A stretch of DNA of 64,000 bases. Origin: Myxococcota bacterium (GTDB taxonomy: Bacteria; Myxococcota_A; UBA796; CAJQPC01). The stretch lies in assembly GCA_036012755.1 (NCBI GenBank), contig DASCPX010000179.1, forward strand, positions 1 through 64,000, given 5' to 3'. Below the pieces are notes generated by a model. The model did not search any database, was not told the origin of the DNA, and saw only the letters and a list, made by a program, of their open reading frames with translations. The position numbers and the translations under genes are program-made. Positions 8,608 through 23,872 of this stretch are shown in pieces. Positions within the stretch are counted from its first letter, which is position 1; each line of letters opens with the position of its first letter.

Positions 8608-8650
8608 GCGGTCAAAGCGACAGCACCTCGAAGGGGAAGACAGTCGGCGA

Positions 8651-8815: not shown

Positions 8816-8936
8816 CCGCTACTGAGTTGGGGCACCCGGGCATCATGCCGGTGCCCTTACTTTTCACGTCGCTGGTCTTCCCCTACGCTCTGGGTCCCAG
8901 GAAAGCCCTCTTCCTGGGCTTCCGTGGAGACTCGCC

Positions 8937-11162
8937 ATGAGGATGCGCTGCTTGTTTGTTTTCCTGGTCGCGACCGGCTGCAAGGACACGGCTTCGGATG
9001 ACACCGGGGGCCCGGTCGACGACGACGGCGACGGGTTCACGGTCGAGGACGGTGACTGTGACGACGCCGACGCGTCCATCCACCCAGGAGCCGAAGACAC
9101 CTGGTACGACGGAGTGGACACCAACTGCGACGAAGCCAGTGACTACGACGCCGACGGCGATGGCCACGACAGCGACGACTACGACGGCGACGACTGTGAC
9201 GACGCGGACGCCACCATCTCCCCCAGTGCAGATGAGATCTGGGACGACGGCATCGACCAGGACTGCGACGGTTTGGCGGATGTCGAAGGCTCTTCCTGCT
9301 CAGCCGACTTCACGGTCACCTTTCCCGATGGCAGCACGACCACGCTCGATGGCTGCGCCGACTGGGACTTCGACGCCTCCTTCGAGTACGACCCGGACGA
9401 CCCACCCGAGGTCATCGACTTCACCTTCACGCTGGGAGCCACAACCGAGGCCGACTTCGACTGTCGGGTGGAGCTGGTCCAGCAGGGCGTGTGCGGCGAG
9501 GGCTACTACGACCAGCGAGACGCCACCACGTCCACCACGCTGGTGCTGCTGGACTGCTCGGGTGTGGCGGACGAATACGAGGGCACCTTCTCGGCGAGCG
9601 AGGGCTACCTGCGAATCGACACGCTCGATGCGGGGTCGGACGCGGGGAGCTTCGCGGGTGAACCCCTGGCGACCACACTCGAAGCCCACCTGCACGTCTG
9701 GACCGCCGGTGGAATCGACCTCGAAGGGGACCTGGCGCTCACGCTGAAGCAGGTGGCCAGCGACGGGGAGGAGCAGCCCGAGTGCGCGGTGACCGATGGG
9801 GATGAGGATGGCGACGGACACGTCGCTGAGACGTACTTCGATGGGGATGACTGTGACGATGAAGATGTGACGGTCCATCCCGGAGCTGTCGACGAGGCCG
9901 CGTCGGACGAGTGCATGCTGGACGGAGATTCGGACGGCTATGGCGATGCCGATCCGCCGGATGGCTTCGATGCCGGTACCGACTGCGACGATGACGATGC
10001 AACCACCTTTCCCGGTGCGGCGGAATCCGAAGATGCATCGGCGTGCATGACGGACGCAGACGCAGACGGCTACGGAGACAACGACCCGGCCGATGGAGTC
10101 GACGCAGGTACCGATTGCGACGACGATGAGGTGACGGTCTATCCAGGAGCCGTCGACGAGGCCGCGTCGGACGAGTGCATGCTGGACGGAGATTCGGACG
10201 GCTATGGCGATGCCGACCCGCCGGATGGCTTCGATGCCGGTACGGACTGCGACGATGACGCCGACCGGGCCTACCCCTACGACTCCAACGGGGATGGGGT
10301 GGAGGACGCCTGTGGTTGGCGAGTGGACGCGGGCGGCCGGCACACCTGCGCTCTGGACTCCGCGGGCTCCATCGTGTGCTGGGGGTGGGACAACCACGAC
10401 CAGGTCTCCGATACGCCGACGGGCAGCGGCTACACCGCAGTGAGCGGGGGCGGCTACCACACCTGTGCCATTGACTCCACGGGCTCCATCGCGTGCTGGG
10501 GGTACGACGACGACGGCCAGGTCTCCGACGCGCCAACCGGCAGCGGCTACACCGCGGTGAGCGCGGGGTCTGGCTCCAGTGATCCAGCAGGGGGAGGGTA
10601 TGGCGTGGGTCGCCACACCTGCGCTCTGGACTCCGCGGGCTCTATCGCGTGCTGGGGGTACGACGACGAAGGCCAAGTCTCCGACGCGCCGACAGGCACC
10701 GGCTACACCGCTGTGAGTGCGGGCTATTACCACACCTGTGCCTTGGACTCCGGGGGCGCCATCGAGTGCTGGGGGCACGACTACCACGACCAGGTCTCCG
10801 ATACGCCGACGGGCAGCGGCTACACCGCAGTGAGCGCGGGCGACCGGCACACCTGCGCTCTGGACTCCGCGGGCTCCATCGAGTGCTGGGGGCAGGACTG
10901 GGTATGGCAGATCTCCGACGCGCCGACGGGCAGCGGCTACACCGCAGTGAGCGCGGGCAACCGGCACACCTGCGCTCTGGACTCCGCGGGCTCCATCGAG
11001 TGCTGGGGGTGGGACGACGGCGGCCAGGTCTCCGACGCGCCAACCGGCAGCGGCTACACCGCCGTGAGCGCGGGCGGCGAACACACCTGTGCCATTGGCT
11101 CCTCGGGCGGCATCAAGTGCTGGGGGAGCGACTCCAAAGGCCAGTGCTCTGACATCCCTTAG
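8937..11162 (+). CDS. Surface lipoprotein with MopE-like metal-binding repeats and RCC1-like propeller
   Basis: LVATGC lipobox; DCDD.D..IHPGA..WYDGVD.NCD repeats; seven HTCALDS.G.I.CWG repeats. Confidence 0.9.
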   Translation: MRMRCLFVFLVATGCKDTASDDTGGPVDDDGDGFTVEDGDCDDADASIHPGAEDTWYDGVDTNCDEASDYDADGDGHDSDDYDGDDCDDADATISPSADEIWDDGIDQDCDGLADVEGSSCSADFTVTFPDGSTTTLDGCADWDFDASFEYDPDDPPEVIDFTFTLGATTEADFDCRVELVQQGVCGEGYYDQRDATTSTTLVLLDCSGVADEYEGTFSASEGYLRIDTLDAGSDAGSFAGEPLATTLEAHLHVWTAGGIDLEGDLALTLKQVASDGEEQPECAVTDGDEDGDGHVAETYFDGDDCDDEDVTVHPGAVDEAASDECMLDGDSDGYGDADPPDGFDAGTDCDDDDATTFPGAAESEDASACMTDADADGYGDNDPADGVDAGTDCDDDEVTVYPGAVDEAASDECMLDGDSDGYGDADPPDGFDAGTDCDDDADRAYPYDSNGDGVEDACGWRVDAGGRHTCALDSAGSIVCWGWDNHDQVSDTPTGSGYTAVSGGGYHTCAIDSTGSIACWGYDDDGQVSDAPTGSGYTAVSAGSGSSDPAGGGYGVGRHTCALDSAGSIACWGYDDEGQVSDAPTGTGYTAVSAGYYHTCALDSGGAIECWGHDYHDQVSDTPTGSGYTAVSAGDRHTCALDSAGSIECWGQDWVWQISDAPTGSGYTAVSAGNRHTCALDSAGSIECWGWDDGGQVSDAPTGSGYTAVSAGGEHTCAIGSSGGIKCWGSDSKGQCSDIP
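10341..11160 (+). repeat. Intragenic 117-bp tandem repeat (about 7 units)
   Basis: CACACCTG(C/T)GC... recurs near 10341, 10458, 10614, 10731, 10848, 10965 and 11082; one unit has a 39-bp insert. Confidence 0.9.
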
Positions 11163-11621: not shown

Positions 11622-13025
11622 TCAGAACTGGAAGTAGAAAAACGGCGCAGCAAGGCCCGCGAAGAGGCTGAGGATCCCCACCGCGCAGACCCCGACAGCT
11701 GCCAGGCCCCAGGGTGGCATCTCGCCGAAGGCCTCGCGGAGCCTGTCCTTGAGGCCGATGGGGGACAGGTGCAGGGCTGCTGCTGCTGCCAGGGCGAGCA
11801 GTCCAGGGACCGCGAGCAGGGAGCCGTCGAACCAGCGGGGATGGAACAGCGCGACGAAGGCGTGGCCGGCCTCCCGGAAGGAGTTGACGTGGAGGAAGAT
11901 CAGGCCGATGCAGAGGGCGTTGAAGGTCACGAAGACCTCGATCCAGCGGCCCCACCAGCTCTTCGCGGGCTTGGGCGCCCACTTCCGCCAGGCGACCAGC
12001 AAGAAGCCGTTCCAGAGGCCCCAGACGGCGAAGGTCCAGCCGGCGCCGTGCCAGAGGCCCCCGAGGAAGAAAGTGAAGACCGTCGCGAACATGGTCCGCG
12101 CCACCCCGTGCTTGGAGCCCCCGAGGGGGAAGTACAGGTAATCCCTCAGGAAGAACGACAGCGTGATGTGCCAGCGCCGCCAGTGCTCCATCGGGGTCCT
12201 GGAGATGAAGGGGCGCCTGAAGTTCTCTGGCAGCGAGAACCCGAACAACAGTGCGGCTCCGATGGCGACGTCGCTGTAGCCGCTGAAGTCGCAGTAGACC
12301 TGGAAGTTCGCGGCCCAGACCGCCAGCAGGGTGTCCAGGGTTCCGAAGGCCGCTGGCTCGTCGAAGTAGGGCCGCACGATGTGGCGGGCCATGGTGTCAG
12401 CCAGGATCATCTTCTTGGCGAGGCCGGCGAGGATGAAGAAGATGCCCTCGCCGAAGGCCCTGTCGTCCAGCCTGGGTCGCGAGGCGAGCTGGGGCAGGAA
12501 CTCCCGGGCGCGGACGATGGGGCCAGCTACCAGCTGTGGGAAGAAGAAGACGAAGACAGCGAAGGACAGGGGGTTCTTCGTCGGCTGGATCTTCCTCCTG
12601 TAGATGTCGACGGTGTAGGACAGCGACTGGAAGGTGTAGAAGCTGATGCCCACCGGCAGCACGGTGCCGATCCGCCCCAGCCTGGTGTCTACGCCACCCG
12701 CCGAGAGCGCCATCTCCGTCGAAGCGAGCAGGAAGTCGCCGTACTTGAAGACGCCGAGCAGGCCGAGGTCGAGGGAGACCGTGAGCGCCAGGAGCTTCTT
12801 GCGGGTGCTCTCCTTGTCGCTGTTGCCGATGAGCCAGCCGAAGACGAAGGAGTTCAGCGTCGAGATCGCGATGAGGAAGAGGTACCAGGGCTGCCAGCTC
12901 GCGTAGAACAGCGCGCTGACGAACAAGAGCCAGATCCACAGCGGCCACTTCCACCGCTCGATGGCGGCGTAGACCGCGTAGACGACGACCAGGAAGACGC
13001 CGAACTCGAAGGTGTTGAACAGCAC
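11622..13025 (-). CDS. MBOAT O-acyltransferase (AlgI/DltB family)
   Basis: LPVGISFYTFQ, FPQLVAGPI, YCDFSGYSD, WRRWHITLS, GLWHGAGW, FFYFQF end. Confidence 0.95.
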   Translation of the reverse strand: MLFNTFEFGVFLVVVYAVYAAIERWKWPLWIWLLFVSALFYASWQPWYLFLIAISTLNSFVFGWLIGNSDKESTRKKLLALTVSLDLGLLGVFKYGDFLLASTEMALSAGGVDTRLGRIGTVLPVGISFYTFQSLSYTVDIYRRKIQPTKNPLSFAVFVFFFPQLVAGPIVRAREFLPQLASRPRLDDRAFGEGIFFILAGLAKKMILADTMARHIVRPYFDEPAAFGTLDTLLAVWAANFQVYCDFSGYSDVAIGAALLFGFSLPENFRRPFISRTPMEHWRRWHITLSFFLRDYLYFPLGGSKHGVARTMFATVFTFFLGGLWHGAGWTFAVWGLWNGFLLVAWRKWAPKPAKSWWGRWIEVFVTFNALCIGLIFLHVNSFREAGHAFVALFHPRWFDGSLLAVPGLLALAAAAALHLSPIGLKDRLREAFGEMPPWGLAAVGVCAVGILSLFAGLAAPFFYFQF

Positions 13026-14071
13026 TAGTGGCTGGCACCCTCCAGGATCGGGGCCACCTGTTCACAGAGCTCGGCGGAGAAGATGGCGGAGCCGCTCGCG
13101 TCGAGGTGATCGGGATCGAGCCAGTGCTCCTTGTCGCTCCTCCAAGTCGAGAGGTTGCCGTCCCAGACCTCGACCCCCGCGCCCTCCATCTCCAGGACGG
13201 CCTGGACGTGGGCCGAGTAGACGTCTCCGGGGATGACGCGGAAGAACTGCGGGTGGAGCGGCATGTTGACGAAGAGCACGGCGACGCCGTTGTCATCCGC
13301 CCACTGGAGCGTCTCCAGCATGCGCCGATGGTTGAGCCCCTCGCCGGTCTCCCAGTCACCGAAGCGCCCGGCGGTGGCCAGGCCCTGGCGCTCGGTGGAC
13401 CACTTTGCCCAGCGGTACGAGGAGAGCTTCGAGAAGGCCTCGTTCTGGTCCGGGCAGGTGGGGTCACCGAAGCAGAACTGACCTCCGCGGTGGTGGGTCA
13501 TCATCCAGCGCAGGCGCTGCTCTTCGTCGAAGCGACCGCTGAGCAAGAGCGCCAGGGTCTCGGGCCCGCGTGCGACGGGCTCCAGCGCGCCGATCACCGT
13601 GCGGACGTTGCGGGCCTCTGCGAGCATCTCCGGCACGTCCGCGACCCGACCTTCGAGGGCGAAGATCCGGAAGTTCTTGTGGTTGTTGTCGTTGAGCGCC
13701 TCTGCTGTGACCCCGATGACGAGCAGCTTCGGGACCCGGTCCGAGACGAGCACGTCCCTGGCCAGGTGCTCCCAGGTGAGCCCGGTCGAGTAGACCCGCG
13801 AGAGGTTCACAGAGCGCGTCTGGCGCCCGAGGGTGTCGCTGAGGCAGGCGTCGAGCGCGGTCGGGCTGACCCCGAAGCTGCCACGGCTGCTCCCGAAGAC
13901 CACGACGTCCAGTGGTCCCTCGACGCCGTGCTGGAAGCTGAAGATGTCGCTCGGCCAGACGATGTTCTGCACGTAGCGCAGGCCCGCTGCTTCGGTCGCT
14001 GCCGAGGTCCCCACGAGCATCACGAGGAACCAGATTAGCGAGGCGACGCCTCTCCACACCGAGGGGCTCAC
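13025..14071 (-). CDS. SGNH/DltD-like partner of the MBOAT
   Basis: N-terminal TM, VFGSSR motif, C-terminal DPDHL (DxxH); coupled to the MBOAT gene. Confidence 0.75.
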   Translation of the reverse strand: MSPSVWRGVASLIWFLVMLVGTSAATEAAGLRYVQNIVWPSDIFSFQHGVEGPLDVVVFGSSRGSFGVSPTALDACLSDTLGRQTRSVNLSRVYSTGLTWEHLARDVLVSDRVPKLLVIGVTAEALNDNNHKNFRIFALEGRVADVPEMLAEARNVRTVIGALEPVARGPETLALLLSGRFDEEQRLRWMMTHHRGGQFCFGDPTCPDQNEAFSKLSSYRWAKWSTERQGLATAGRFGDWETGEGLNHRRMLETLQWADDNGVAVLFVNMPLHPQFFRVIPGDVYSAHVQAVLEMEGAGVEVWDGNLSTWRSDKEHWLDPDHLDASGSAIFSAELCEQVAPILEGASH

Positions 14072-14439
14072 TTGTGCTTGCCCCCTGGCTTCACGCTCTT
14101 CCTGCCGACGCGACGCTGGAGCTTCTTCCGGGTCTCCCTCGCGACGCCCCTGGAGAGTGGGTCCTCGCCACGCTTCGCGGCCTCTGCCATCTCTCGCCAG
14201 ATCTGCTTCTGGAGGTCGCGGTTGGCGTCCTGCTTCTCTCCGACCGCCTGCCCGTTGAGGCCACCTGGGAAGTTCGGCTCTGGCGCCGCGGGGGTTCCGC
14301 TGCCGAGGGCCATCGCCTGGTCCACGTCCACGCGCTCTCCGTGCTGGACTGGGACCAACAAGGCCCCCGCCGCCAGCGAGCCGAAGAGGACCACGACCGC
14401 AAGGACACCGATGCCACGGCCCAGCTGACGGGGGCTCAC
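14068..14439 (-). CDS. Hypothetical membrane-anchored protein
   Basis: GTGA overlaps at both ends; N-terminal TM. Confidence 0.6.
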   Translation of the reverse strand: MSPRQLGRGIGVLAVVVLFGSLAAGALLVPVQHGERVDVDQAMALGSGTPAAPEPNFPGGLNGQAVGEKQDANRDLQKQIWREMAEAAKRGEDPLSRGVARETRKKLQRRVGRKSVKPGGKHK

Positions 14440-14795
14440 GGGAGCCCCTCGGGGAAGGCGCGGCCGGCTGCGACATGGAGCGCCCGGTAGCGCTCGAAGA
14501 GCTCGACGACCGCGGGGTCCTCCAGGCTCGCGGTCTCGGAGGCTGCGGTGATCTGCTCCGGGGTGGGGAGCCCCTCCACGTCGCCGAGCTCGGAGCTCAG
14601 GAAGTGGAAGATCTCCCACAAGGCCGCTTCGCCGGCTGGCGCGGTGTTCCGGGTGGGCCCCCAGCCTCCGCCGAGGCCCTTCTTCGGGCCCCTTCCGTCG
14701 AAGGTCAGCGGGTCGAGCTCGTACAGATCGACGGGGGGCTCCACCGCCGGCCAGTGACTTCCGCTCGAACATGCCAACGACAAGAGGAAGATCAC
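14436..14795 (-). CDS. Hypothetical lipoprotein
   Basis: MIFLLSLAC; GTGA overlap with the upstream gene. Confidence 0.65.
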   Translation of the reverse strand: MIFLLSLACSSGSHWPAVEPPVDLYELDPLTFDGRGPKKGLGGGWGPTRNTAPAGEAALWEIFHFLSSELGDVEGLPTPEQITAASETASLEDPAVVELFERYRALHVAAGRAFPEGLP

Positions 14796-16126
14796 GGCGT
14801 CCAATAACCCCGCTGCCCGAGGAGCTCGCGGCGCTCCTCGCTGACCTCGCCGGAGGCCCTCGGATCCAGCTTCTCGCGCCAGCTGATGAGCTCGTCGCGG
14901 AGGCTCAGGTCGCCTTCCCAGGCAGGTCCGTGGGGATCAGAGGCCTTCATGATCGGGACCAGGAAGGGGTTGTGGGGGGATAGGCCGGAGAACGACAGCC
15001 GCGCTGCGCCGCGGGTCGCGAGGAGCTCGCGGAAGGCGGACTCGGAGAAGACCGTGCGCTCCTTGGGCGGCGCCAGCAGATCACTGCCCGACAGCCCCGC
15101 CGGCGGCGCAAGACCAGTCGCCGCGAACAGCGTCGGGGCGATGTCGACGAGGGAGACCGTCTCGCTGACGCGGCCGGTTCGGCCACCGGGGACGCTGATG
15201 AGTAGCGGCACCCGCACGACGTCCTCGCAGAGGGGGGGGCGGTGGTTGAAGAGGCCGTGCTCCCCAAGGTCCTCGCCGTGGTCGCCGAGCACGACGATGA
15301 TGGTGTCGTCGAGCTTTCCCCGGCTCTCGAGGCCGGCCATCAGCTCTCCGAACCAGGCGTCGCCGTACTGCACGGCCGAGTCGTAGACACCGGCGACGGC
15401 GGCGGCGGCTGTGGGACCGAAGGGCACCCCGCCTTCCCGCTCTCTGGCGCGCGCGGCTGCATCCCATGCGCGCAGGTGGTCCTTGGCGAAGAGGTCACCA
15501 AAGCGCTTGTCCGGGAAGTACTGACCCTCGACCACCCGCGCCGTGCCGGAGTGCCTGCGGGCGACCTCGCCGGCGACGCCCTCTGGGAGGTCGCTGTGCG
15601 GCTTGAGGTAGCGATGGTGGGCGTCGTAGCCATGGACTACCAGGAAGAAGTCGCCGTCGACGTCATCCAGCCAGGCCAGCGCCGGGGGGACGGTGTGGAA
15701 GAAGCTGCCCCAGTCGCGCACGGACTCGTAGGTCCCGAAGCCGTCCTGGAGGCCGAAGACCGGGTCGAGGTGGCCGCCGGCCACGAAAGCCCCGGTCTCG
15801 TAGCCGTAGAGCCCGAAGACCTCGGCCAGGGTCTTCTCCTCGGGGGGGAGCGTGAAGCTGTAGTCGACCGCCCCGATCTCCGAGACGTAGCGCCCGGTGA
15901 ACAGCGCCGCGTGCGAGAAGAGGGTCTCGTTGCTCGGTGCGACCGCGTTGTCGAAGACCAGCGCCGAGCGGGCGAAGGCGTCGAGGTTGGGGGTCAGGCT
16001 GTCGACGTTGCCGTAGGCGCCGAGTCGATCACGCCGCAGGGTGTCGAAGCTCACCACCAGCACGCTCGGGTGCCCAGGCTCTTGCGACTGCGCGGCGCAG
16101 CCCAGCGTCAACGAGAACATCAGCAC
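14792..16126 (-). CDS. Sulfatase-like (alkaline phosphatase superfamily) lipoprotein
   Basis: VSFDTLRRDRLGAYG..TPNLD, SNETLFSHAALFTG, YDAH, GDHGE, VPL. Confidence 0.88.
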   Translation of the reverse strand: MLMFSLTLGCAAQSQEPGHPSVLVVSFDTLRRDRLGAYGNVDSLTPNLDAFARSALVFDNAVAPSNETLFSHAALFTGRYVSEIGAVDYSFTLPPEEKTLAEVFGLYGYETGAFVAGGHLDPVFGLQDGFGTYESVRDWGSFFHTVPPALAWLDDVDGDFFLVVHGYDAHHRYLKPHSDLPEGVAGEVARRHSGTARVVEGQYFPDKRFGDLFAKDHLRAWDAAARAREREGGVPFGPTAAAAVAGVYDSAVQYGDAWFGELMAGLESRGKLDDTIIVVLGDHGEDLGEHGLFNHRPPLCEDVVRVPLLISVPGGRTGRVSETVSLVDIAPTLFAATGLAPPAGLSGSDLLAPPKERTVFSESAFRELLATRGAARLSFSGLSPHNPFLVPIMKASDPHGPAWEGDLSLRDELISWREKLDPRASGEVSEERRELLGQRGYWTP

Positions 16127-16144
16127 GGTGCTAGGGTAGCGGCA

Positions 16145-17941
16145 GTGCTCTTCTCTCTGCTCATCGCTTGCACCGACGAGGCCCCCAGACAGGTCCTGCT
16201 GCCACCCGTAGCGGCCATCTGGGCGGCGGAGCATCGCCACTTCGACAGAGACGGCGACGGCGTCCTGGGCCCGCGGGAGTTCACCCAAGGAGTCCGAAAG
16301 CACACCTCCGGGCTGTCCTTCGCTGCGGGGGACCTCGATCTCGACGGAAGGCTCAGCCTCTCCGAGTTCCGGACGCTGATGGAGACCCGCGAGCCCCGAG
16401 TCCTGGTCGACAAGCGCCTCGATCCGGGGGACCCGAAGCGGCGCCAGACGGAGCAGTTCCAGTTCGTGCCGCGCGAGGGACGGATCCCCGGAGACGAGGG
16501 GCCGGTCGCCACGGAGCGGAAGGGCTTGCCCAACCTCCTGCTCATCTCCATGGACTCGGTGCGGGCGGACCGGACCTCGCCCTACGGCTTTGTGAAGGAC
16601 ACGACCCCCTGGCTCGCTCGCCTGGCCGAGCACGGCGTGGTCTTCGAGACGGTCGGCTCGACCGGAAACGAGTCCGCGTACTCCCACGCCGCGATGCTGA
16701 CCGGGCGCTACCCGAGCGAGATCGCCAGCCCCGACTACCTCACCTACCAGATCCCCGAGGAGGCGACGCTGGTGGGGGAGATCCTCCAGCTCTACGGCTA
16801 CGAGACCGCAGCCTTCCTGGCGGGCGGCCACATCCGCGGCGAGTTCGGTTTCGACCAGGGGTGGCAGACCTTCAGCCACGAGTTGGGCTTCGCGAGCTTC
16901 TGGCACACCACGCCAAAGGCGCTCGAGTGGCTCGACGAGCGCGAGCGGGGCGCGCCCTGGATGCTCATGGTCCACGGCTACGACGCCCACCGCAGCTACA
17001 TCCTGCCCGACCCCTACTACCACCGCTTCACAGCCGGCGGTGGAAGCCCGCTGGCCGAGCACATCGTCCGACGCGGCTACCGCGCCGAGCGCATCTACGG
17101 CGACACCTTCTACGAGGACTTCGAGCTCGAGAGCCTCCAGCACCCCAGCGGGATGTTCATCCTCACGCCCGGGTCCTACGCCCGCCTGGTAGACGAGGCT
17201 GGCGCGCGGGCTGACGGCCAGACGCTCACAGCCGCCGACATCGAGCACCTCCGCGGCCACTACCACGCGATGTTGCGCTACCTCGACCTGCAGCTGGCCC
17301 TCTTCCTCAGCGCCGCAGAGGCCAGCGGCCACTTGGACAACACGCTCATCGTGCTGACCTCTGACCACGGCGAGGACATGCTCGATCACGGCTGGATGAA
17401 CCACCGGACGGGGCTGACCGAGAGCTGCACGCGGGTGCCGCTCGTGGTGCTCGGCCCCGGGGTCGCCGAGGGCGCACGCTCGGAGGAGCTGGTGAGCCTG
17501 CTGGACCTCGTCCCCACGCTGTTGGAGGCAGGCGGCGCGGTGCCCCCCGCGGAGCTTCGAGGTCGCTCGATCTGGCCCGCGCTGCGCGGGGAGGACATGC
17601 CCGATCAGCCGATCTTCTACGAAGGGGTGAACGACCAGGTCGCGGTGCGGACCGCCACCCACAAGCTGGTCTACTCAGGCCTCCCGCTGTCGGATCCTGG
17701 CCACCTCGCTGGTCTGCAGAGCGACGGCCCCGAGCACTTCGCGCTCTACGACCTGCGCAGTGATCCCGGCGAGACCGCAGCGGTAGACGACCCCGCGGTC
17801 TTCGACGCTCTCCGCATGGAGCTCATCGTCTGGAGGGTGGGGCTCGCGACGGCGACGCACGGAATGGACCCCGCCAGCCTGGATCCCGCCATCAGGAGGG
17901 AGATGCAGGACAAGGGCTACTGGGAGTTCGGCGAGGACTGA
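16145..17941 (+). CDS. Sulfatase-like lipoprotein with N-terminal EF-hand pair
   Basis: LIAC; DRDGDGVLGPREF and DLDGRLSLSEF; PNLLLISMDSVRAD, GNESAYSH, SDHGE. Confidence 0.88.
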   Translation: MLFSLLIACTDEAPRQVLLPPVAAIWAAEHRHFDRDGDGVLGPREFTQGVRKHTSGLSFAAGDLDLDGRLSLSEFRTLMETREPRVLVDKRLDPGDPKRRQTEQFQFVPREGRIPGDEGPVATERKGLPNLLLISMDSVRADRTSPYGFVKDTTPWLARLAEHGVVFETVGSTGNESAYSHAAMLTGRYPSEIASPDYLTYQIPEEATLVGEILQLYGYETAAFLAGGHIRGEFGFDQGWQTFSHELGFASFWHTTPKALEWLDERERGAPWMLMVHGYDAHRSYILPDPYYHRFTAGGGSPLAEHIVRRGYRAERIYGDTFYEDFELESLQHPSGMFILTPGSYARLVDEAGARADGQTLTAADIEHLRGHYHAMLRYLDLQLALFLSAAEASGHLDNTLIVLTSDHGEDMLDHGWMNHRTGLTESCTRVPLVVLGPGVAEGARSEELVSLLDLVPTLLEAGGAVPPAELRGRSIWPALRGEDMPDQPIFYEGVNDQVAVRTATHKLVYSGLPLSDPGHLAGLQSDGPEHFALYDLRSDPGETAAVDDPAVFDALRMELIVWRVGLATATHGMDPASLDPAIRREMQDKGYWEFGED

Positions 17942-19851
17942 GTCTTCGAAGGCTTGAAGGCGCTGTAGACGACCCAGCGCCACTGGTCTCGAATTCGTCC
18001 AGAGGGCGTGATCTCGAAGGGATGGGCCCTCCGCACTTCGGCCGGCGCTTCGTGGTAGAGGCGACGGATCTCGTGACGCTGCAGCGACGGCGTCTCGTGG
18101 GTCTCGATCCAGGTGTCGATGTCCTCCCACACGGTGAGCTCGCTGGTCTCGATGTCTACGAAGCCGGCGTCCTCGAGCAGGCGAACGAGGTCTTCTGCCA
18201 GGAAGTTGTTGAAGAACAGGGGCTGCTTCTTCTTCACGATGCGGAAGAACCAGGGCGCGTCGACCGGGCCGTATGGCACCAGCTGGCCAAAGATGAACTG
18301 GCCACCGGGCCGCAGGACGCGGAAGACCTGGGCGACCGGACGCTCCGGGCGCGGGAGGAGGTGGAGGACCTCGCGGTTGCAGACGAGGTCGAAGCTGTCG
18401 TCCGGGAAGGGCATCTCGTAGACGTCGCCCTTCGTGACGTGGTCGAGCCGGGTCTCGGCGAGCGCGATCATCTCGGGCGTGAGGTCCAGGCCCTCGATGT
18501 GACCCACCTGTTCGCGGAAGCTGGCGCCGACGACCCCTGAGCCGCAGCAGATGTCGAGCACGCGGGCGTCCTCTGGCATCTTGCACATCGCGGCGTGGGC
18601 GGACAGCAGGTTCTCGTCTGTGAGCCACACGCAGCTGTCGTGCCAGTTCTTCGAGCGAATGCCGAACTGCTTCCGGTAGATCTCCTTGGAGAGCTTGGTG
18701 TCCACGGCCTGGTAGCGGGCGCGTTCGCTGGCCCTTCGCGCGGCGGCCCGAGCCCTGGAGGCCTCCAGCGCCTTGCCGACGATGGCGGCGGCTACGTCCG
18801 GGTGGGCCTCCATCCAGGCGTCGAGCTCCTTCTCGACCACCCTCTGTACCGCCGCGTGGGCGCCCCCGGATGACAGCATCGTCTTGGTCTGCCCCTCGAA
18901 CTGGGGCTCGGGGAGCGTCACCACCAGGACCGCGACCATGCCCTCGCGGATGTCGTGTCCGGCGATCTCCTCGTCGAGGTCGTCGCTGAGCAGACCCACC
19001 TTGCGCACGTAGCGGTCCACCGACCTCGTCAGCGCCGCCCGGAGCCCGGTGACGTGGGTCCCGCCGTGGCGTGTGTGGATGGTGTTGACGTAGCTGCGGA
19101 GTTCCTCGTGGTAGGTGCGCGTCCACATCAGCGCGACCTCGACCTCGACCTCGTCCCGAGCACCGGAGAGCCGAATCGGTTCCCGGTGCAGGGCGCGAGG
19201 GCCGGCGATGCGCTGGACGAAGCCGGCGACACCGCCCTCCTCCTCGTAGACCTGCTCCGTGCCATCCGGCAGGCTCAGCTCCAGGCGCAGGCCGGGGAGC
19301 AGGAAGGACCACTCTTCGAGGCGCCGGGCGATGGCGGCGAGGTCGACCGCGCCCTCCTCGAAGATCTGGGGGTCGGGGCGCCAGCGGACCACCGTCCCGT
19401 GGTGCTCGGTCGCGCCAAGGTCCTCGCAAGGAGAAGGGAGGCCACGCTGGTAGCGCTGCCGCACGTGCCGGCCCCGGTGGACCTCGACCTCCAGGACCTC
19501 TGAGAGGGCGTTCACGCAGGAGATTCCGACACCGTGGAGGCCGCCGCTGACCGTGTAGCCGCCAGCCTTGTCGAACTTCCCGCCCGAGTGCAGGGTCGTG
19601 AGGACGAGCTCGATCGACTCCAGCGGGATGCCGCGGCCATCGTCGATGACCGTGGTGGTCCCGTCGTGGTCCACCTCGACCCGGATGCGGGTGCAGAATC
19701 CGGCGAGGGCCTCGTCGATGCTGTTCTGGACGACCTCGAGCAGCAGGTGGAGCGCTCCGTCGGGCCCGGTGGAGCCGATGTACATGGCCGGGCGGTGGCG
19801 GACCGCCTCGAGTCCCCCGAGGACACGAATGGAGGTGGCGTCGTACCTCAA
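17917..19851 (-). CDS. GyrB-type GHKL ATPase/transducer fused to a class I SAM-dependent methyltransferase (644 aa)
   Basis: YDATSIRVL.GLEAVR.RP.MYIG, EVVQNSIDE, DDGRGIP, SGGLHGVG, EPQFEGQTK, then VLDICCGSG...FPDDSFD; no Toprim; TTG start overlaps the upstream stop. Confidence 0.88.
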   Translation of the reverse strand: MRYDATSIRVLGGLEAVRHRPAMYIGSTGPDGALHLLLEVVQNSIDEALAGFCTRIRVEVDHDGTTTVIDDGRGIPLESIELVLTTLHSGGKFDKAGGYTVSGGLHGVGISCVNALSEVLEVEVHRGRHVRQRYQRGLPSPCEDLGATEHHGTVVRWRPDPQIFEEGAVDLAAIARRLEEWSFLLPGLRLELSLPDGTEQVYEEEGGVAGFVQRIAGPRALHREPIRLSGARDEVEVEVALMWTRTYHEELRSYVNTIHTRHGGTHVTGLRAALTRSVDRYVRKVGLLSDDLDEEIAGHDIREGMVAVLVVTLPEPQFEGQTKTMLSSGGAHAAVQRVVEKELDAWMEAHPDVAAAIVGKALEASRARAAARRASERARYQAVDTKLSKEIYRKQFGIRSKNWHDSCVWLTDENLLSAHAAMCKMPEDARVLDICCGSGVVGASFREQVGHIEGLDLTPEMIALAETRLDHVTKGDVYEMPFPDDSFDLVCNREVLHLLPRPERPVAQVFRVLRPGGQFIFGQLVPYGPVDAPWFFRIVKKKQPLFFNNFLAEDLVRLLEDAGFVDIETSELTVWEDIDTWIETHETPSLQRHEIRRLYHEAPAEVRRAHPFEITPSGRIRDQWRWVVYSAFKPSKTQSSPNSQ

Positions 19852-20306
19852 TCCCTCAACTCCTTCGCGACAGCCTCGCAGCGGTCCGCGTGGGCTGCCT
19901 TGGCGACTGCGACCGACTCGAACCACGAGGCGATGTCGGGGAAGCCCTCCGCGTGGGCGGTGCGGGCGGCGTCCAGCAGGTCCTCTGTGGCCTCGACCCG
20001 GGCGGCGTCGCGCAGGGCGGCGAGGTTGTCGGCGGTCCCTCGCAGGACCCGGCCGGTCACAGGGTGGCCGGTCTTCTTCAGGAAGTCGAGGTGGCCCTCG
20101 GCGAAGAGCTCGGTGCCCTCCGAGAGCTCGTGCAGCGTGCCCGCGATCTCGTGGAAGCCCTCGATCTCGGCGATGCGAGCGAAGTAGGCATAGAGCACCG
20201 CCGCGCGCGCGTCGTTCGAGAAGAAGCGCCCCAGGCACTCGTGGGTGCGAGTTCCTCTGAGATCCGGGAGGCGACCCTTGGCGGCCTCCCGCGTGCGGTC
20301 GTCCAT
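19848..20306 (-). CDS. Degenerate rubrerythrin (ferritin-like) protein
   Basis: L.G.RT...L...F, YAYFA..A..EG, GHL.FL...G.P.TG, EGF..IA.WFE.....AHA pattern. Confidence 0.8.
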   Translation of the reverse strand: MDDRTREAAKGRLPDLRGTRTHECLGRFFSNDARAAVLYAYFARIAEIEGFHEIAGTLHELSEGTELFAEGHLDFLKKTGHPVTGRVLRGTADNLAALRDAARVEATEDLLDAARTAHAEGFPDIASWFESVAVAKAAHADRCEAVAKELRD

Positions 20307-20313
20307 CGTGGTT

Positions 20314-22014
20314 CTACTTCGCTGCTGTCGTCAGCTGCTTGGCGCCGCAGTCCATGAGGGCGGAGCCGATCGCGGCCTGCTCGGGGGTCCCGCAGTTCTC
20401 GAGCGTGAAGCGCTCCGAGCCCGGCGCGAGGTAGGGGGCGCCGGAGGAGAACTCGGCCCGCCAGCCCTCGCCGGCATAGTCGACGGAGTTCTGCAGACCA
20501 TCATCCGGGTTCCCGGCGTGGTACTCGAAGTGCTCTGGCCAGTGCTCGAAGTCCATCACCGGACCGGGGCAGTAGGCGTCGTAGACCCGCTTGTAGGCGC
20601 GACGGCTCACCTCCTCGGGGAGGCCGTTGTAGTTGAGGAACTCGTCCTCGAGCAGCGCCTGCTCGATGCTGAGCCAGTTGAGATGGTCCACCTCGGACTT
20701 GATGATCCCGTCGCGGAGGCCGTTGTTGTAGATCGACGTCCCAGGCATCGCCGAGAGGTACTTCACGCGGGTGATGTGGTTGTTCTCCTCGGCCCAGGTG
20801 GCGACGTGGTCGAGGCTCTCCTCCGTCTCCCCCGGCAGGCCGACGATGATCAGCGCGCCGTAGCGCAGATCCGCCTCGTAGGTCTTCCTCAAGGAGCGGA
20901 CGGTGATGTTCTCGCTGTTGCCCTTCCGGGCCTCCTTGAGGATGTTCTGGCCCAGGGACTCGACGCCGTAGAGCACGATGTCGCAGCCCGACTTCTTCAT
21001 CGCGGTGAGGCGCTCTGTGTCGACGTCTGAGCAGCGGGTCAGGCAGGTCCAGCGCAGGTCGTGGTCCTGGATGACCTCGCAGATCTCGACGGTCTGGCGC
21101 TTCTGGCTCGTGAAGGTCAGGTCGACGAAGAAGACGAACTCCGTGCCGTACTGCTCCTTCATCCAGCGCAGGTCGCGGTCGAGCTTCTCTGGAGACTTCG
21201 CCCGGACCTGCGGTGTCGTCCGGTAGCAGAAGCTGCAGTCCATCCTGCAGCCGCGGGAGTAGCTAGCGATGACCTGTGGCTGCAGCCCGCGGGGGTCGTT
21301 GGCTTGCGGCCAGAGATCCAGGCGCATCCGGGGAAGGCTGTCGAGGTCCATCATCTGGCCACGCGGGACCGTGCGCAGCATCTGGCCCTCGGGCCCGCGG
21401 AAGGCGATGCCGCGGATCGACGCGAGCTCCCGCGACCAGGCGCCGCGGCGGAAGCTGTCCATGACCTCGAGGATCGTGAGCTCGCCCTCGGACAGCACGG
21501 CCACGTCGACACCGCACCGGGCGAAGAAGGTCTCCGGAACGCTGGTGACCAGCGATCCGCCGAGCACGACCGGGACCTTCGGCAGCTCCGTCTTGCAGAG
21601 GTCCACGAAGGCGCAGACCCAGGGGAAGTTGTCCTCGAAGGTCGCCACACCGACCACGTCGACGCGTTCTCGCTTCAGCGCCTCCCAGGCCTCCCTCATC
21701 GGATCGACGGCGTAGCGGACGTCGATGATGCGGACCGGGTAGCCGGCGTTGTGGAGGACGGTGGAGATGTAGGCGATGCCCTCGTACGGAGAGGTCAGGA
21801 AGAACTCCCACCCCCGAGGCATCGAGAAGGGCGATGGTCCGACGACGAGGGCGATGGCGGGCTTGCCCGTGTCCGTAGAGATGGGGCTCTCGTCCTGGTC
21901 GCGCATCATGCGCATGAGGTGGGCGTCGACCGAGGACACGGCGTCCGTGTACAGCTCCGGGGCCAGGGATGGCTTTCGCGCCACGCGCACCTCCGCAGGC
22001 AGGTGGGAGCCCAC
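20314..22014 (-). CDS. B12-binding-domain radical SAM protein (start uncertain)
   Basis: PYEGIAYISTVL, VVLGG, EGE, SRGCRMDCSFC (CxxxCxxC), FVDLTF, GVES, IVGLPGET. Confidence 0.92.
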   Translation of the reverse strand: MGSHLPAEVRVARKPSLAPELYTDAVSSVDAHLMRMMRDQDESPISTDTGKPAIALVVGPSPFSMPRGWEFFLTSPYEGIAYISTVLHNAGYPVRIIDVRYAVDPMREAWEALKRERVDVVGVATFEDNFPWVCAFVDLCKTELPKVPVVLGGSLVTSVPETFFARCGVDVAVLSEGELTILEVMDSFRRGAWSRELASIRGIAFRGPEGQMLRTVPRGQMMDLDSLPRMRLDLWPQANDPRGLQPQVIASYSRGCRMDCSFCYRTTPQVRAKSPEKLDRDLRWMKEQYGTEFVFFVDLTFTSQKRQTVEICEVIQDHDLRWTCLTRCSDVDTERLTAMKKSGCDIVLYGVESLGQNILKEARKGNSENITVRSLRKTYEADLRYGALIIVGLPGETEESLDHVATWAEENNHITRVKYLSAMPGTSIYNNGLRDGIIKSEVDHLNWLSIEQALLEDEFLNYNGLPEEVSRRAYKRVYDAYCPGPVMDFEHWPEHFEYHAGNPDDGLQNSVDYAGEGWRAEFSSGAPYLAPGSERFTLENCGTPEQAAIGSALMDCGAKQLTTAAK

Positions 22015-22090
22015 ATCCTAACGCGTCGAGGTCGTGGGACGGCGTCAACAGGCTCTCGGAGACGTTAGGCGCCGTCCCTGGAGGATCCCC

Positions 22091-22831
22091 ATGAAGTCCG
22101 ATGGTGCCGATGTCCGCGCCCACTTCACTGCCCGCGCTGCGCACTACGACCGGAGCTCGAACTGGTGCACCGACGACACCCTCGCCGAGGCTACCTGGCG
22201 GTATGCGGCGGCGAAGGCGGACCATCGAGTCCTCGATGTCGCCTGCGGGACCGGCCTGGTGTCGCGAGTGTTCAAGGGACGAGTGAGCGAGATCGTCGGC
22301 GTGGACATCACGCCGGCCATGTACGAGCAGGCGGAACCTCACCTCGATCGCTTCGTCGAAGGCGCTGGCGAGGACCTCCCCTTCGCCGCTGACAGCTTCG
22401 ATCGCGTCGTCTGCCGGCAGGGCACGCAGTTCATGGACGACGCCGCGGCGGTGAGAGAGATGGCCCGCGTGGTGAAGCCAGGCGGTCGTGTCGTGGTCAT
22501 CAACCTCTGCGCCTACGGCGAGCGGGACCGTGACGAGTACTTCGAGGTCCTGCGGTTGCGGAACCCAGCGCGGCGGAACTTCTACATGCGCGAGGATCTC
22601 GTCCACCTCTTCGAGGATGCCGGACTGTCGGTGGATGTCCACGACTTCGTCATCGAAGAGGACGTCGACGCCTGGGCGGACAACAAGGCCATCGGAGCAG
22701 ACCGCCGCGACGGCATCCGCGAGATCTACCGGAACGCCTCGCCGGCCTTCGCCGCGCACCATGCCGTCGAGTTCGACGGCGGGCGGATTCTGGACAGAAT
22801 GTTGTTTGGAATCGCCGTGGGCGACAAGTAG
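22091..22831 (+). CDS. Class I SAM-dependent methyltransferase (UbiE/Methyltransf_11-like)
   Basis: GGAGG RBS; VLDVACGTG, LPFAADSFD, EMARVVKPGG. Confidence 0.92.
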   Translation: MKSDGADVRAHFTARAAHYDRSSNWCTDDTLAEATWRYAAAKADHRVLDVACGTGLVSRVFKGRVSEIVGVDITPAMYEQAEPHLDRFVEGAGEDLPFAADSFDRVVCRQGTQFMDDAAAVREMARVVKPGGRVVVINLCAYGERDRDEYFEVLRLRNPARRNFYMREDLVHLFEDAGLSVDVHDFVIEEDVDAWADNKAIGADRRDGIREIYRNASPAFAAHHAVEFDGGRILDRMLFGIAVGDK

Positions 22832-22864
22832 CGGCTAACCTTCATCCGCGTCCCGGAGGCTCTC

Positions 22865-23872
22865 TTGATCGCGCTCTTCCTCGCCTGCCAGACCCCCACG
22901 ACACAGCCAGAGGTCGAGATCGCGCCCGTCGAGCCAGCGGCCAAGGGCACGACGATGCTCGCCATCAACTTCCCGGTGCAGGAGCAGCGCCTCGTCGAGC
23001 TCGACGCGGAGGGCGAGGTCGTCTGGCAGTTCGTGGTCGGCGACGAGCTGACCTTCAATGGCGACGGGGAGTTGCCGGGGCTGTTGTCCTCGATGGAGGT
23101 CCTGCCGTCCGGCAACGTGCTCTTCACGGTGTTCCTGGTCGGCGTCTTCGAGATCGATCGTGAGGGCGAGATCGTCTGGGAGCACCGGGATCCGGGCGCC
23201 AGCCACGACGTGGACCGACTGGCCAATGGCAACACGCTCTACGCGCGCACCTGGGCAGAAAAAGGCGAGCCCCAGGTCGTCGAGATCGACCCGGAGGGCG
23301 AGGTCGTCTGGAGCTGGGACGGCCTCTCGGCATACGGCGACCACATGGTCTTTGGTGACGTCACCGACGAGGCGGGCGGCTGGATGCACGTCAACGACGT
23401 CGCCCGCGCCGAGGACGGGACGACCATGGTCGTCATCCGCAACTTCAACAAGATCGTCCACCTCGACGACGCCGGCGCCGTGGTCGATGTCTTCACCTTC
23501 CGCAGCCAGGCCGGCGTCTTCGACATCAGCACGCGCGGCCCTGTCGACGGCGAGCGCCCGCACGGCGTCGAGTGGCTCGGTGCCCATCACTTCGTCGCCG
23601 CGACGAGGCGCCCGCATCGCATCGTCGAGGTCAATGGTCGTGACATCGTCTGGAGCTACACGGACGCGCGCCTGGCCGGCATCCGCGACGTCGACCGCCT
23701 GCCCGACGGCAACACGCTGCTGGTGGCGGCCGAAGAGGTCGTCGAGCTCGACGACAGCGGCGCGGTGGTGTGGGAGTGGACCCTCCTGACGGAGGGGTTG
23801 CCAGAGGACATCAACCCGATCCCGGCGATCAGCCGCATCGCAGCTGACGGCACGGTGCTGGACAGGGACTAG
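22865..23872 (+). CDS. Arylsulfotransferase-like beta-propeller lipoprotein
   Basis: MIALFLAC; repeated EID.EGEVVW, HDVDRLANGNTL, WMHVNDV. Confidence 0.7.
   Translation: MIALFLACQTPTTQPEVEIAPVEPAAKGTTMLAINFPVQEQRLVELDAEGEVVWQFVVGDELTFNGDGELPGLLSSMEVLPSGNVLFTVFLVGVFEIDREGEIVWEHRDPGASHDVDRLANGNTLYARTWAEKGEPQVVEIDPEGEVVWSWDGLSAYGDHMVFGDVTDEAGGWMHVNDVARAEDGTTMVVIRNFNKIVHLDDAGAVVDVFTFRSQAGVFDISTRGPVDGERPHGVEWLGAHHFVAATRRPHRIVEVNGRDIVWSYTDARLAGIRDVDRLPDGNTLLVAAEEVVELDDSGAVVWEWTLLTEGLPEDINPIPAISRIAADGTVLDRD

What the first reader, a model, noticed from the sequence alone, without database searches (positions are those of the whole stretch)
17917..19851. GyrB ATPase clamp fused to a SAM methyltransferase instead of Toprim
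Seen: the first ~385 aa are a GyrB-like N-terminal fragment with intact GHKL motifs (ExxxNxxDE, DxGRG, GGLHGVG, QTK). At the helix that normally leads into Toprim (ASRARAAARRA) the frame runs straight into a complete class I methyltransferase. The gene is translationally coupled (TTGA overlap) to a ferritin-like gene, with no recF, dnaN or gyrA nearby. Known: GyrB needs Toprim and GyrA to act as a gyrase, and its ATPase domain is the aminocoumarin binding site. Inference: either an ATP-gated dimerising methyltransferase, or a target-mimic that binds a gyrase-ATPase inhibitor and methylates it (resistance or tailoring). I know of no described protein with this architecture.
Basis: partly seen in the sequence, partly recalled or inferred. 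Interest (0 to 1): 0.9.

Follow-up and report, generated by a model that had tools for sequence, protein, structure and literature searches.

The report
Gyrase-ATPase methyltransferase of sulfamate pathway
The gene is a real fusion of a gyrase-type ATP clamp to a methyltransferase, but it belongs to a family (NucP/AcmP) already known from Streptomyces, where it is genetically needed to build the rare sulfamate group of two antibiotics, and its chemistry is still unknown.

Summary
Observation confirmed; the claim of novelty is not. Window 17917-19851 (-) encodes 644 aa: a GyrB 43K-type ATPase and transducer (residues 1-385, all ATP and dimerisation residues kept), a 15-residue linker, then a class I SAM methyltransferase. 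There is no Toprim. It is not an artefact: at least 225 non-redundant relatives share the architecture, contigs from three runs bridge the junction, and the genome has separate gyrB, gyrA and parE/parC-like genes. The protein is 49% identical over its full length to the single gyrase::methyltransferase protein of the nucleocidin producers Streptomyces virens and S. calvus. [quoted passage not shown] The neighbours match too: NucQ-like pseudo-rubrerythrin (translationally coupled), NucJ-like B12-radical SAM and NucL-like methyltransferase. NucK-, NucN- and NucO-like genes lie on another contig. Best reading: an ATP-gated dimeric methyltransferase subunit of a sulfamoyl-forming enzyme set in a marine Myxococcota-like genome, with an unknown acceptor. 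The gyrase-inhibitor decoy idea has no support. This scan found the same family twice before on other DNA.

The parts
17917..19851 (-). NucP/AcmP-type gene: GyrB ATPase-transducer fused to a class I SAM methyltransferase (644 aa plus stop)
   Evidence: 49% identity over the full length to the S. virens/S. calvus protein
18697..19851 (-). residues 1-385: GHKL ATPase domain plus transducer domain (GyrB 43K equivalent), ending in the long helix 351-378
   Evidence: Pfam HATPase_c 31-159 and DNA_gyraseB 207-376; Foldseek TM 0.90-0.93 to GyrB 43K fragments; catalytic residues at least 95% conserved in 225 members
18688..18732 (-). residues 374-388: junction and flexible linker, at the place where GyrB continues into Toprim
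   Evidence: pLDDT below 50 at 374-388; the gyrB model ends at position 392 of 639; bridged by contigs of three runs
17950..18687 (-). residues 389-634: class I SAM-dependent methyltransferase domain (motif I LDICCGSGVVG, 432-442)
   Evidence: Methyltransf_11 at 432-521; nearest solved chains are BH2331 1vl5 and YcgJ 1xxl; 74% mean column identity across 6 phylum-spanning copies
19848..20306 (-). NucQ/AcmQ-like pseudo-rubrerythrin (152 aa); its stop overlaps the start of the fusion gene
   Evidence: Pfam Rubrerythrin 27 bits; NCBIfam rubrerythrin 61 bits against a cut-off of 200; directly upstream of the fusion gene in 26 of 27 loci examined
20314..22014 (-). NucJ/AcmJ-like B12-binding radical SAM enzyme (566 aa)
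   Evidence: B12-binding plus Radical_SAM; 59-64% identical copies beside the fusion gene in L004-L008, 38% in L009
22034..22831 (+). NucL/AcmL-like class I methyltransferase (265 aa), a paralogue of the fused methyltransferase domain (about 30% identity)
   Evidence: a relative fused to a B12-radical SAM enzyme exists (P0255)
22865..23872 (+). arylsulfotransferase-like beta-propeller protein (335 aa); context gene, not shown to belong to the set
   Evidence: Pfam Arylsulfotrans 5.8e-15; not found with this query in 5 other cassette-bearing genomes
14792..16120 (-). sulfatase-family lipoprotein-like gene (442 aa) with T-x-x-S-H-A where sulfatases have C-x-P-S-R-A; possible NucG/AcmG counterpart
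   Evidence: Pfam Sulfatase 4.9e-33; motif; start; only about 28% identical to the G genes of the Streptomyces loci
16130..17941 (+). second sulfatase-family gene with EF-hands (start not fixed); convergent with the fusion gene and overlapping its 3' end by 25 nt
   Evidence: Pfam Sulfatase 2.6e-35 and EF-hand; motif; no ATG/GTG/TTG found at the expected start

Best explanation
The gene encodes a member of the NucP/AcmP family. This is a protein in which the ATP-operated N-terminal clamp of DNA gyrase subunit B (GHKL ATPase plus transducer) has lost Toprim and the GyrA-binding part and instead carries a class I SAM-dependent methyltransferase on a flexible linker. It is not a topoisomerase. 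It is made together with a pseudo-rubrerythrin (NucQ-like, translationally coupled), and it sits beside a B12-radical SAM enzyme (NucJ-like) and a paralogous methyltransferase (NucL-like). The same genome carries, on another contig, the sulfotransferase (NucK-like), the sulfotransferase-like protein (NucO-like) and the amidinotransferase-fold protein (NucN-like). Together these correspond to seven of the nine cluster genes (J, K, L, N, O, P, Q; a sulfatase-family G candidate is also present, no clear nucI counterpart) that Streptomyces needs to make the sulfamoyl group (O-SO2-NH2) of nucleocidin. Shown: the architecture, family membership, the conserved gene partnership, and intact ATPase and SAM-binding motifs. 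Inferred: ATP binding closes the two N-terminal domains into a dimer as in GyrB, so that the two C-terminal helices bring two methyltransferase domains together. ATP turnover thereby gates a SAM-dependent step on an anionic sulfur-bearing intermediate. That step would be cryptic, because no methyl group remains in the known products. Also inferred: this marine Myxococcota-like organism puts a sulfamoyl or related S-N group on an acceptor that is not yet known.
For: Architecture and motifs. Family size: the best 120 hits of each of two searches all carry HATPase_c, DNA_gyraseB and Methyltransf domains with no Toprim listed, and 225 members of 600-700 aa were aligned. Link to NucP: 49% identity over residues 3-634 to P0133 of S. 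virens, whose 90% cluster holds the S. calvus proteins, and 49% to the Frankia casuarinae protein ABD11137.1. Frankia sp. CcI3 Francci3_1761 is the best match that PMC4257720 lists for AcmP. PMC10946740 states that nucP has no paralogue in producer genomes and that nucI, G, J, K, L, N, O, Q and P are each needed for sulfamylation. Gene partnership: J, L and Q lie beside P in 6 of 6 loci from four phyla. K, O and N also lie there in L004, L007, L008 and L009; L005 has K and O, and L006 has O. Q is directly upstream of P in 19 of 20 further loci of the window's phylum. K, N and O homologues (39-47% identity) are on contig C72 of the same genome. An APS kinase scores over its cut-off, so PAPS can be made. 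ATPase integrity: Y3, I8, E39, N43, D46, E47, D70, G72-G74, K92, Y99, G104-G109, T153 and Q321-K323 are at least 95% conserved, and only 2 positions are family-specific against gyrB. One origin of the fusion is not rejected: 29 NucP-type ATPase modules sit on one side of a branch from 40 gyrB/parE modules, including this genome's own, with support 100/100.
Against: No biochemical activity of any NucP-type protein is in the papers I could read, so ATP gating, dimerisation and the methyl acceptor are inference. Known sulfamates carry no methyl group, so the need for two methyltransferases and a B12-radical SAM enzyme is unexplained. Here the set is split over two contigs of a metagenome-assembled genome (95.95% complete, 1.62% contamination), so co-function of the two loci is assumed. 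No nucleoside-pathway genes were seen in the stretches scanned. A clear NucI counterpart was not identified, and the flanking sulfatase-family genes are only about 28% identical to the Streptomyces G genes. I did not see an accession for NucP itself. P0133 is equated with NucP from the paper's description plus its 'no paralogues' statement.
Confidence: 0.7

Rival explanations
1. Same pathway, different job. The fusion protein services the B12-radical SAM enzyme, for example by ATP-dependent reactivation or SAM-dependent re-methylation of its cobalamin, with the pseudo-rubrerythrin as a redox partner. It would not act on the sulfur intermediate itself.
For: It is always found with a B12-radical SAM enzyme. 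Both methyltransferase domains give weak hits to the NCBIfam 'corrinoid protein-associated methyltransferase CpaM' model (2.6e-10 and 1.6e-11, far below the cut-off). A relative of the NucL-type methyltransferase is fused to a B12-radical SAM enzyme (P0255).
Against: From general knowledge, class B radical SAM methylases re-methylate their own cobalamin with SAM, and known corrinoid reactivases are not GHKL ATPases. J was within the fetched stretch in only 14 of 20 phylum loci. The Rosetta-stone fusion involves the L-type domain, not the P-type domain.
Confidence: 0.12
2. Outside actinomycetes the cassette makes something other than a sulfamate. It could be another sulfated or S-N/S-C product, or a modification of a cell-surface polymer, so the Streptomyces phenotype does not transfer.
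For: No nucleoside genes were seen in either locus. Instead there are many exported sulfatase-family and EF-hand proteins, arylsulfotransferase-like proteins and SPFH/Band 7 genes. The gene is common in the window's order (f6 11 of 12, f3 6 of 8 genomes), which fits a lineage trait better than a sporadic antibiotic.
Against: Seven genes (J, K, L, N, O, P, Q) travel together across Actinomycetota, Pseudomonadota, Gemmatimonadota, Bdellovibrionota and the window's phylum at 37-64% identity. This argues for one conserved chemistry.
Confidence: 0.15
3. One reading: a decoy of the gyrase ATPase that binds an aminocoumarin-like inhibitor and methylates it (self-resistance or tailoring).
For: The ATP pocket, which is the aminocoumarin site in GyrB (solved complexes 1kij and 6eng appear among the fold matches), is fully conserved.
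Against: Conservation of that pocket is equally expected for an ATPase. The N-terminal strap and the QTK lysine, needed for hydrolysis but not for drug binding, are conserved too. None of the genes Pfam-scanned around it, in the window and in 4 of the 27 loci examined (L004-L007), belongs to a gyrase-inhibitor pathway; the other loci were checked only by tblastn for the cassette genes. The nucP deletion has a biosynthetic phenotype, loss of sulfamylation.
Confidence: 0.03
4. A nucleic-acid-directed enzyme: the clamp still captures a DNA or RNA duplex, as GyrB captures the T-segment, and the methyltransferase modifies it.
For: The transducer domain and the long C-terminal helices that line the GyrB cavity are retained.
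Against: The methyltransferase is of the small-molecule type 11 kind. Its nearest relatives are BH2331/YcgJ, MitM and phosphoethanolamine N-methyltransferases, and it gave no Pfam match to any DNA methylase family (one sub-threshold match to rRNA methyltransferase AviRa: 17.2 bits, cut-off 25.7). PADLOC gave only a generic methyltransferase hit. The partners are metabolic enzymes.
Confidence: 0.04

Closest known systems
NucP (nucleocidin cluster, Streptomyces calvus / S. virens)
   Same: Same domain order (GHKL ATPase, transducer, class I methyltransferase, no Toprim). 49% identity over residues 3-634 to the S. virens protein. Same partners: NucQ-like, NucJ-like and NucL-like genes adjacent, NucK/N/O-like genes in the genome.
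   Different: The host is a marine Myxococcota-like genome (runs are marine metagenomes). The set is split over two contigs. No nucleoside or fluorination genes were seen. The protein is about 14 residues shorter at the N-terminus and lacks 8 residues after DDGRGIP. I did not see NucP's accession, so the identification is by description.
AcmP (ascamycin/dealanylascamycin cluster, Streptomyces sp. JCM9888)
   Same: 658 aa, annotated 'DNA topoisomerase II', next to AcmQ (rubrerythrin, 155 aa), with AcmJ 557 aa and AcmL 250 aa. These lengths match the window's 644, 152, 566 and 265 aa. Its listed best match, Frankia sp. CcI3, corresponds to a Frankia casuarinae protein that is 49% identical to the window protein.
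   Different: The AcmP sequence itself was not compared. The acm cluster also holds PAPS genes and alanyl-tRNA-synthetase-like genes, which are absent here.
DNA gyrase subunit B, 43 kDa N-terminal fragment (e.g. E. coli 1ei1/4wub, M. tuberculosis 3zkb)
   Same: Same fold (TM 0.90-0.93, rmsd about 2 A, 42-46% identity) and the same ATP-binding, hydrolysis and strap residues.
   Different: No Toprim or C-terminal GyrA-binding region. It scores 402 bits against the gyrB cut-off of 882.4. It forms a separate branch from gyrB/parE (support 100/100).
BH2331 (1vl5) / YcgJ (1xxl) type-11 SAM methyltransferases
   Same: They are the nearest solved relatives of the C-terminal domain (E 2.5e-13 and 1.1e-12). 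They align through the C-terminal extension as well as the Rossmann core.
   Different: They are stand-alone proteins of unknown function. The fusion family has its own invariant residues (QFGIRSxxWH, KKKQPL, WEDID..W, WRW).

Membership tests
NucP/AcmP (gyrase-ATPase::methyltransferase of sulfamoyl biosynthesis) | GHKL ATPase plus GyrB transducer followed by a class I methyltransferase, without Toprim | tested here: met
   Pfam and NCBIfam; model and fold search
NucP/AcmP (gyrase-ATPase::methyltransferase of sulfamoyl biosynthesis) | Full-length sequence similarity to the protein of nucleocidin producers | tested here: met
   49% identity over residues 3-634 to P0133 (S. virens), whose cluster includes S. 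calvus proteins. P0133 is equated with NucP from the description in PMC10946740, not from an accession.
NucP/AcmP (gyrase-ATPase::methyltransferase of sulfamoyl biosynthesis) | Pseudo-rubrerythrin (NucQ/AcmQ) gene paired with it | tested here: met
   TTGA overlap in the window; Q directly upstream in 26 of 27 loci
NucP/AcmP (gyrase-ATPase::methyltransferase of sulfamoyl biosynthesis) | Co-occurrence with the other sulfamylation genes (J, L, K, N, O; G, I) | tested here: met
   J and L are in the window. K, N and O are on contig C72. G is represented only by distant sulfatase-family genes. No clear NucI counterpart was found.
NucP/AcmP (gyrase-ATPase::methyltransferase of sulfamoyl biosynthesis) | Required for formation of the sulfamoyl group | not testable with these tools
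   Genetic evidence exists only for S. calvus (PMC10946740)
DNA gyrase subunit B (TIGR01059) | ATPase and transducer domains with catalytic residues | tested here: met
DNA gyrase subunit B (TIGR01059) | Toprim domain and C-terminal GyrA-binding region; score over the curated cut-off | tested here: not met
   The match covers model positions 1-392 of 639 only, at 402 bits against 882.4. A true gyrB (980 bits) is on C16.
Class I SAM-dependent methyltransferase (Methyltransf_11) | Rossmann-type core with SAM motif I and an acidic residue at the end of strand 2 | tested here: met
   74.7 bits against a cut-off of 21.2. LDxCCGSGVVG and GLD456 are invariant in 23 sequences and at least 95% conserved in 225. 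The roles of the motifs are recalled from general knowledge.

The most novel reading that the evidence does not exclude
The sulfamoyl-forming cassette is far more widespread than the two known Streptomyces antibiotics. In marine Myxococcota it may put a sulfamoyl (or other S-N) group on a non-nucleoside acceptor. The NucP-type enzyme may use a gyrase ATP clamp for chemistry, coupling ATP turnover to a SAM-dependent activation step in S-N bond formation. That would be a use of the GyrB ATPase with no precedent outside DNA topology.
Probability: 0.25. Interest if true: 0.8.

Novelty: new member of a known kind. Interest (0 to 1): 0.45.

Why it matters
[quoted passage not shown] Sulfamoyl nucleosides are potent inhibitors of aminoacyl-tRNA synthetases and are being explored as antimalarial leads (abstracts). 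The NucP-type protein is the oddest member of the required set, a DNA-gyrase ATPase recruited into small-molecule biosynthesis. This window adds no new kind of protein. The session does show four things:
- The fusion arose on one branch, apart from gyrB/parE.
- It keeps a complete ATPase.
- It is almost always coupled to the pseudo-rubrerythrin.
- It travels with six other genes through several phyla.

It was found in 30 of 401 genomes sampled in the window's phylum and in 10 of 301 Streptomyces species genomes. That points to undiscovered sulfamate-type metabolites outside actinomycetes, and it offers many orthologues for biochemistry.

Tried and rejected
- **Complex prediction** of the fusion protein (A1) with the pseudo-rubrerythrin (A2): the verdict was 'no answer' (score 0.00). 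This says nothing for or against binding.
- **Methyltransferase domain folded alone** from a 6-row alignment: a poor model (pLDDT 52), so it was not used for a fold search. The Foldseek search of the full model returned only GyrB/ParE chains among those listed, so no structural neighbours of the methyltransferase domain were obtained.
- **PADLOC**: only generic methyltransferase and radical SAM hits, so a defence-system reading was dropped.
- **The look-up of sequencing runs**: no RNA holder listed. X7 has no listed piece across the linker.
- **The search for related loci in genome contigs**: only 6 of the 80 loci kept carried the fusion. The rest were ordinary gyrB, because one search pattern was the gyrB motif.
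- **Arylsulfotransferase-like neighbour**: not found with this query in 5 other cassette-bearing genomes, so I did not equate it with NucI/AcmI.
- **Paper searches** for the architecture or for newer enzymology: they returned only PMC10946740 and PMC4257720 as papers that mention the protein. Pasternak et al. (cited there as ref. 19) is not in the library, and the supplements of PMC10946740 (Figure S3 on NucQ) were not opened.
- **Considered and rejected**: assembly chimera, pseudogene, and a truncated gyrB left by deletion. The reasons are the conserved full-length relatives and the contigs that bridge the junction.


Full report
**What is there.** The minus-strand ORF 17917..19851 translates to 644 residues without stops. 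Its TTG start overlaps the TGA stop of the upstream gene 19848..20306 (TTGA), and an AAGGAG lies 8 nt upstream.

- Pfam finds HATPase_c (31-159), DNA_gyraseB (207-376) and Methyltransf_11 (432-521), and no Toprim.
- NCBIfam's gyrB model matches only its positions 1-392 of 639, at 402 bits against a cut-off of 882.4.
- An AlphaFold model from a 23-row alignment has mean pLDDT 86. It shows two well-folded modules joined by a low-confidence stretch at 374-388, right after a long helix at 351-378.
- Foldseek places residues 1-385 on GyrB 43K ATPase fragments (M. tuberculosis 3zkb, E. coli 1ei1/4wub, T. thermophilus 1kij) with TM 0.90-0.93 normalised to the target, rmsd about 2 A and 42-46% identity.

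**Not an artefact.** The genome holds a separate gyrB (C16, 980 bits, over the cut-off), gyrA (C137, 1126 bits) and an adjacent parC/parE-like pair on C9. Logan contigs from three runs cover the linker (nt about 18688-18732) with no differences: X1 record 3 (18221-20400), X3 record 8 (18221-18909) and X5 record 15 (18425-18909). X1 and X3 may be source samples. X5 is another sample of X3's study.

More tellingly, the best 120 hits of two database searches all list HATPase_c, DNA_gyraseB and methyltransferase domains with no Toprim, at 52-100% identity and 88-100% query coverage.

**It is a known family.** Two earlier notes of this scan and a paper search made in the same turn pointed to the nucleocidin cluster. 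I checked this in three ways.

- *The knockout paper.* PMC10946740 (sections 7 and 9 read) reports that deletion of any of nucI, G, J, K, L, N, O, Q or P abolishes sulfamylation but not fluorination. [quoted passage not shown] It also states that these genes have no paralogues in producer genomes, and that NucQ is a 'pseudo-rubrerythrin' lacking two of six iron ligands.
- *The ascamycin table.* PMC4257720 (table passage) lists AcmP (658 aa, 'DNA topoisomerase II'), AcmQ (155 aa, rubrerythrin), AcmJ (557 aa), AcmL (250 aa), AcmK (356 aa), AcmN (319 aa) and AcmO (444 aa).
- *Sequence comparison.* A search seeded with a Streptomyces copy returned a 661-aa S. virens protein (P0133). Its 90% cluster contains the S. 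calvus proteins. The window protein is 49% identical to it over residues 3-634. It is also 49% identical to the Frankia casuarinae protein; Frankia sp. CcI3 is the source of AcmP's listed best match. I did not see an accession for NucP itself, so the identification rests on the paper's description and its 'no paralogues' statement.

**The neighbourhood agrees.** In all 6 full-length loci from genome contigs, the B12-radical SAM gene, the second methyltransferase and the rubrerythrin-like gene lie beside the fusion gene. These loci are a proteobacterial MAG, three Streptomyces, a Gemmatimonadetes MAG and a Bdellovibrionales MAG.

Gene orders (Pfam and tblastn):

| Locus | Order |
|---|---|
| L004 | K J ? 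L Q P O N |
| L005 | G, HTH, J K L Q P O |
| L006 | Q P J L O G |
| L007 / L008 | G J K L Q P O N, DUF6027, second B12-radical SAM |
| L009 | N O J L K Q P |

In 20 further loci from the window's phylum, the counts within the fetched stretch (at most 20 kb, some cut by contig ends) were:

| Gene | Loci with it |
|---|---|
| Q directly upstream of P | 19 of 20 (not found in L101 at my thresholds) |
| J | 14 of 20 |
| O | 13 of 20 |
| N | 12 of 20 |
| L (at least 40% identity) | 12 of 20 |
| K | 11 of 20 |

Q's stop overlaps P's start, or lies within 3 nt of it, in 6 of the 7 loci inspected base by base.

In the window's own genome the set is split. P, Q, J and L are here. K and N (adjacent) and O lie on contig C72 at 39-47% identity to the copies of other loci, among sulfatase-family, EF-hand, SPFH/Band 7 and arylsulfotransferase-like genes. 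An APS kinase scoring over its cut-off is present, so PAPS can be made.

**Evolution and spread.**
- In a careful IQ-TREE of ATPase-transducer modules, 29 NucP-type rows and 40 gyrB/parE rows fall on opposite sides of one branch, with support 100/100. The gyrB/parE rows include this genome's own two. I used 40 of the 73 gyrB loci that gave a long HSP, plus 22 chosen family proteins. The gyrB rows are those most like the query, so the root and the donor lineage are not addressed.
- The methyltransferase-domain profile found the gene in 30 of 401 genomes sampled from the window's phylum. These are concentrated in its own order (f6 11 of 12, f3 6 of 8, f1 5 of 11), and all lie in open frames of at least 540 aa, apart from one extra stand-alone paralogue.
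- The same profile found it in 10 of 301 species genomes of the genus of locus L007, a Streptomyces.
- In the 50%-identity library the tight family collapses to about seven representatives, of which three are full length and the others are shorter pieces or possibly stand-alone forms.
- More distant relatives of the methyltransferase domain occur fused to other members of the same gene set. P0255 is a B12-radical SAM::methyltransferase, 38% identical to the window's J and 42% to its L. P0267 is a sulfatase::methyltransferase.

**How it probably works.** Across 225 family members, every residue that GyrB uses to bind and hydrolyse ATP is at least 95% conserved (assignment of roles is recalled from the GyrB literature). 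These are:
- the catalytic glutamate E39;
- N43, D70, and the GRG and GxHGxG loops;
- K92, Y99 and T153;
- the transducer QTK lysine K323;
- the N-terminal strap residues Y3 and I8, which reach into the partner's site.

Only two positions of the ATPase-transducer part are family-specific against gyrB. The module is therefore under selection as a working, dimerising ATPase, not as a mere binding domain.

The fusion point is exactly where the 43K fragment ends. In the GyrB dimer the two C-terminal helices converge at this point (recalled). ATP-driven closure should therefore bring the two methyltransferase domains together.

The methyltransferase domain keeps its SAM motif (LDxCCGSGVVG and the acidic D456). 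It also carries many invariant basic and aromatic residues (R399, R493, R537, K540-542, R592, R625, W403, W534, W575, W624, W626). I read these as a pocket for an anionic substrate, but that is inference.

What is methylated is unknown, and why a pathway whose known products have no methyl group needs it is also unknown. I commit to an ATP-gated dimeric methyltransferase subunit of the sulfamoyl-forming enzyme set, as a cryptic step. I give about 0.9 to family membership, about 0.6 to sulfamoyl-type chemistry in this organism, and about 0.25 to the specific gating mechanism.

**Rivals.**
- A cobalamin-servicing role for the B12-radical SAM partner is possible (weak CpaM-model hits; the J::L fusion).
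- The product here may not be a sulfamate, since no nucleoside genes were seen.
An ATPase needs that pocket anyway.
- A nucleic-acid target is unlikely, given the small-molecule type of the methyltransferase and the metabolic partners.

**Verdict.** This is a real and intact gene, and a new member of a known but biochemically unexplored family. The same family was found twice before by this scan on other DNA. Its interest lies in the open enzymology and in the breadth of the cassette outside actinomycetes, not in the architecture being undescribed.

Noticed in passing
window 14792-16120 (-) and about 16130-17941 (+); L005 1203-2366, L007 2783-3937: The sulfatase-family genes beside the cassette have T-x-x-S-H-A where canonical sulfatases have the formylglycine motif C-x-P-S-R-A. 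This holds in both window copies and in the G genes of two Streptomyces loci, which suggests a Thr-nucleophile subfamily rather than true sulfatases. The second window copy also carries EF-hands.
   Followed up: partly
proteins P0255 and P0267 (one search hits): Rosetta-stone fusions among members of the same gene set. P0255 is a B12-binding radical SAM::methyltransferase, 38% identical to the window's J and 42% to its L. P0267 is a sulfatase::methyltransferase.
   Followed up: partly
L084 (G000:C72) 5904-9924; L006 11634-13426: Tandem SPFH/Band 7 genes (one fused to an EamA transporter) lie next to cassette genes, both in this genome's second locus and in the Gemmatimonadetes locus.
   Followed up: no
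window 19606-19629 region (after DDGRGIP, residues 70-76): The window protein and its three closest relatives (P0003, P0005, P0007) lack 8 residues of the loop that follows the GRGIP motif. The other 19 aligned family members and GyrB have them.
   Followed up: no
L084 16984-19382 and window 22034-23872: An arylsulfotransferase-like beta-propeller gene occurs twice in this genome, each time next to cassette-linked genes. It was not found with this query in 5 other cassette-bearing genomes.
   Followed up: partly
G087:C14:9211-9936 (L100 about 8812-9537): One relative has a stand-alone 252-aa methyltransferase directly downstream of the fusion gene. It scores 266 bits on the profile of the fused domain, and resembles stand-alone proteins P0236 and P0237 (42-43% identical to the fused domain).
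   Followed up: no
G000:C157:2674-3186: A second APS-kinase-like match in the genome contains one in-frame TAG.
   Followed up: no
window 11622-14476 (-): An MBOAT acyltransferase gene is followed by a 483-aa ORF with no Pfam match, just beyond the sulfatase-family genes. Its relation to the cassette is unknown.
   Followed up: no
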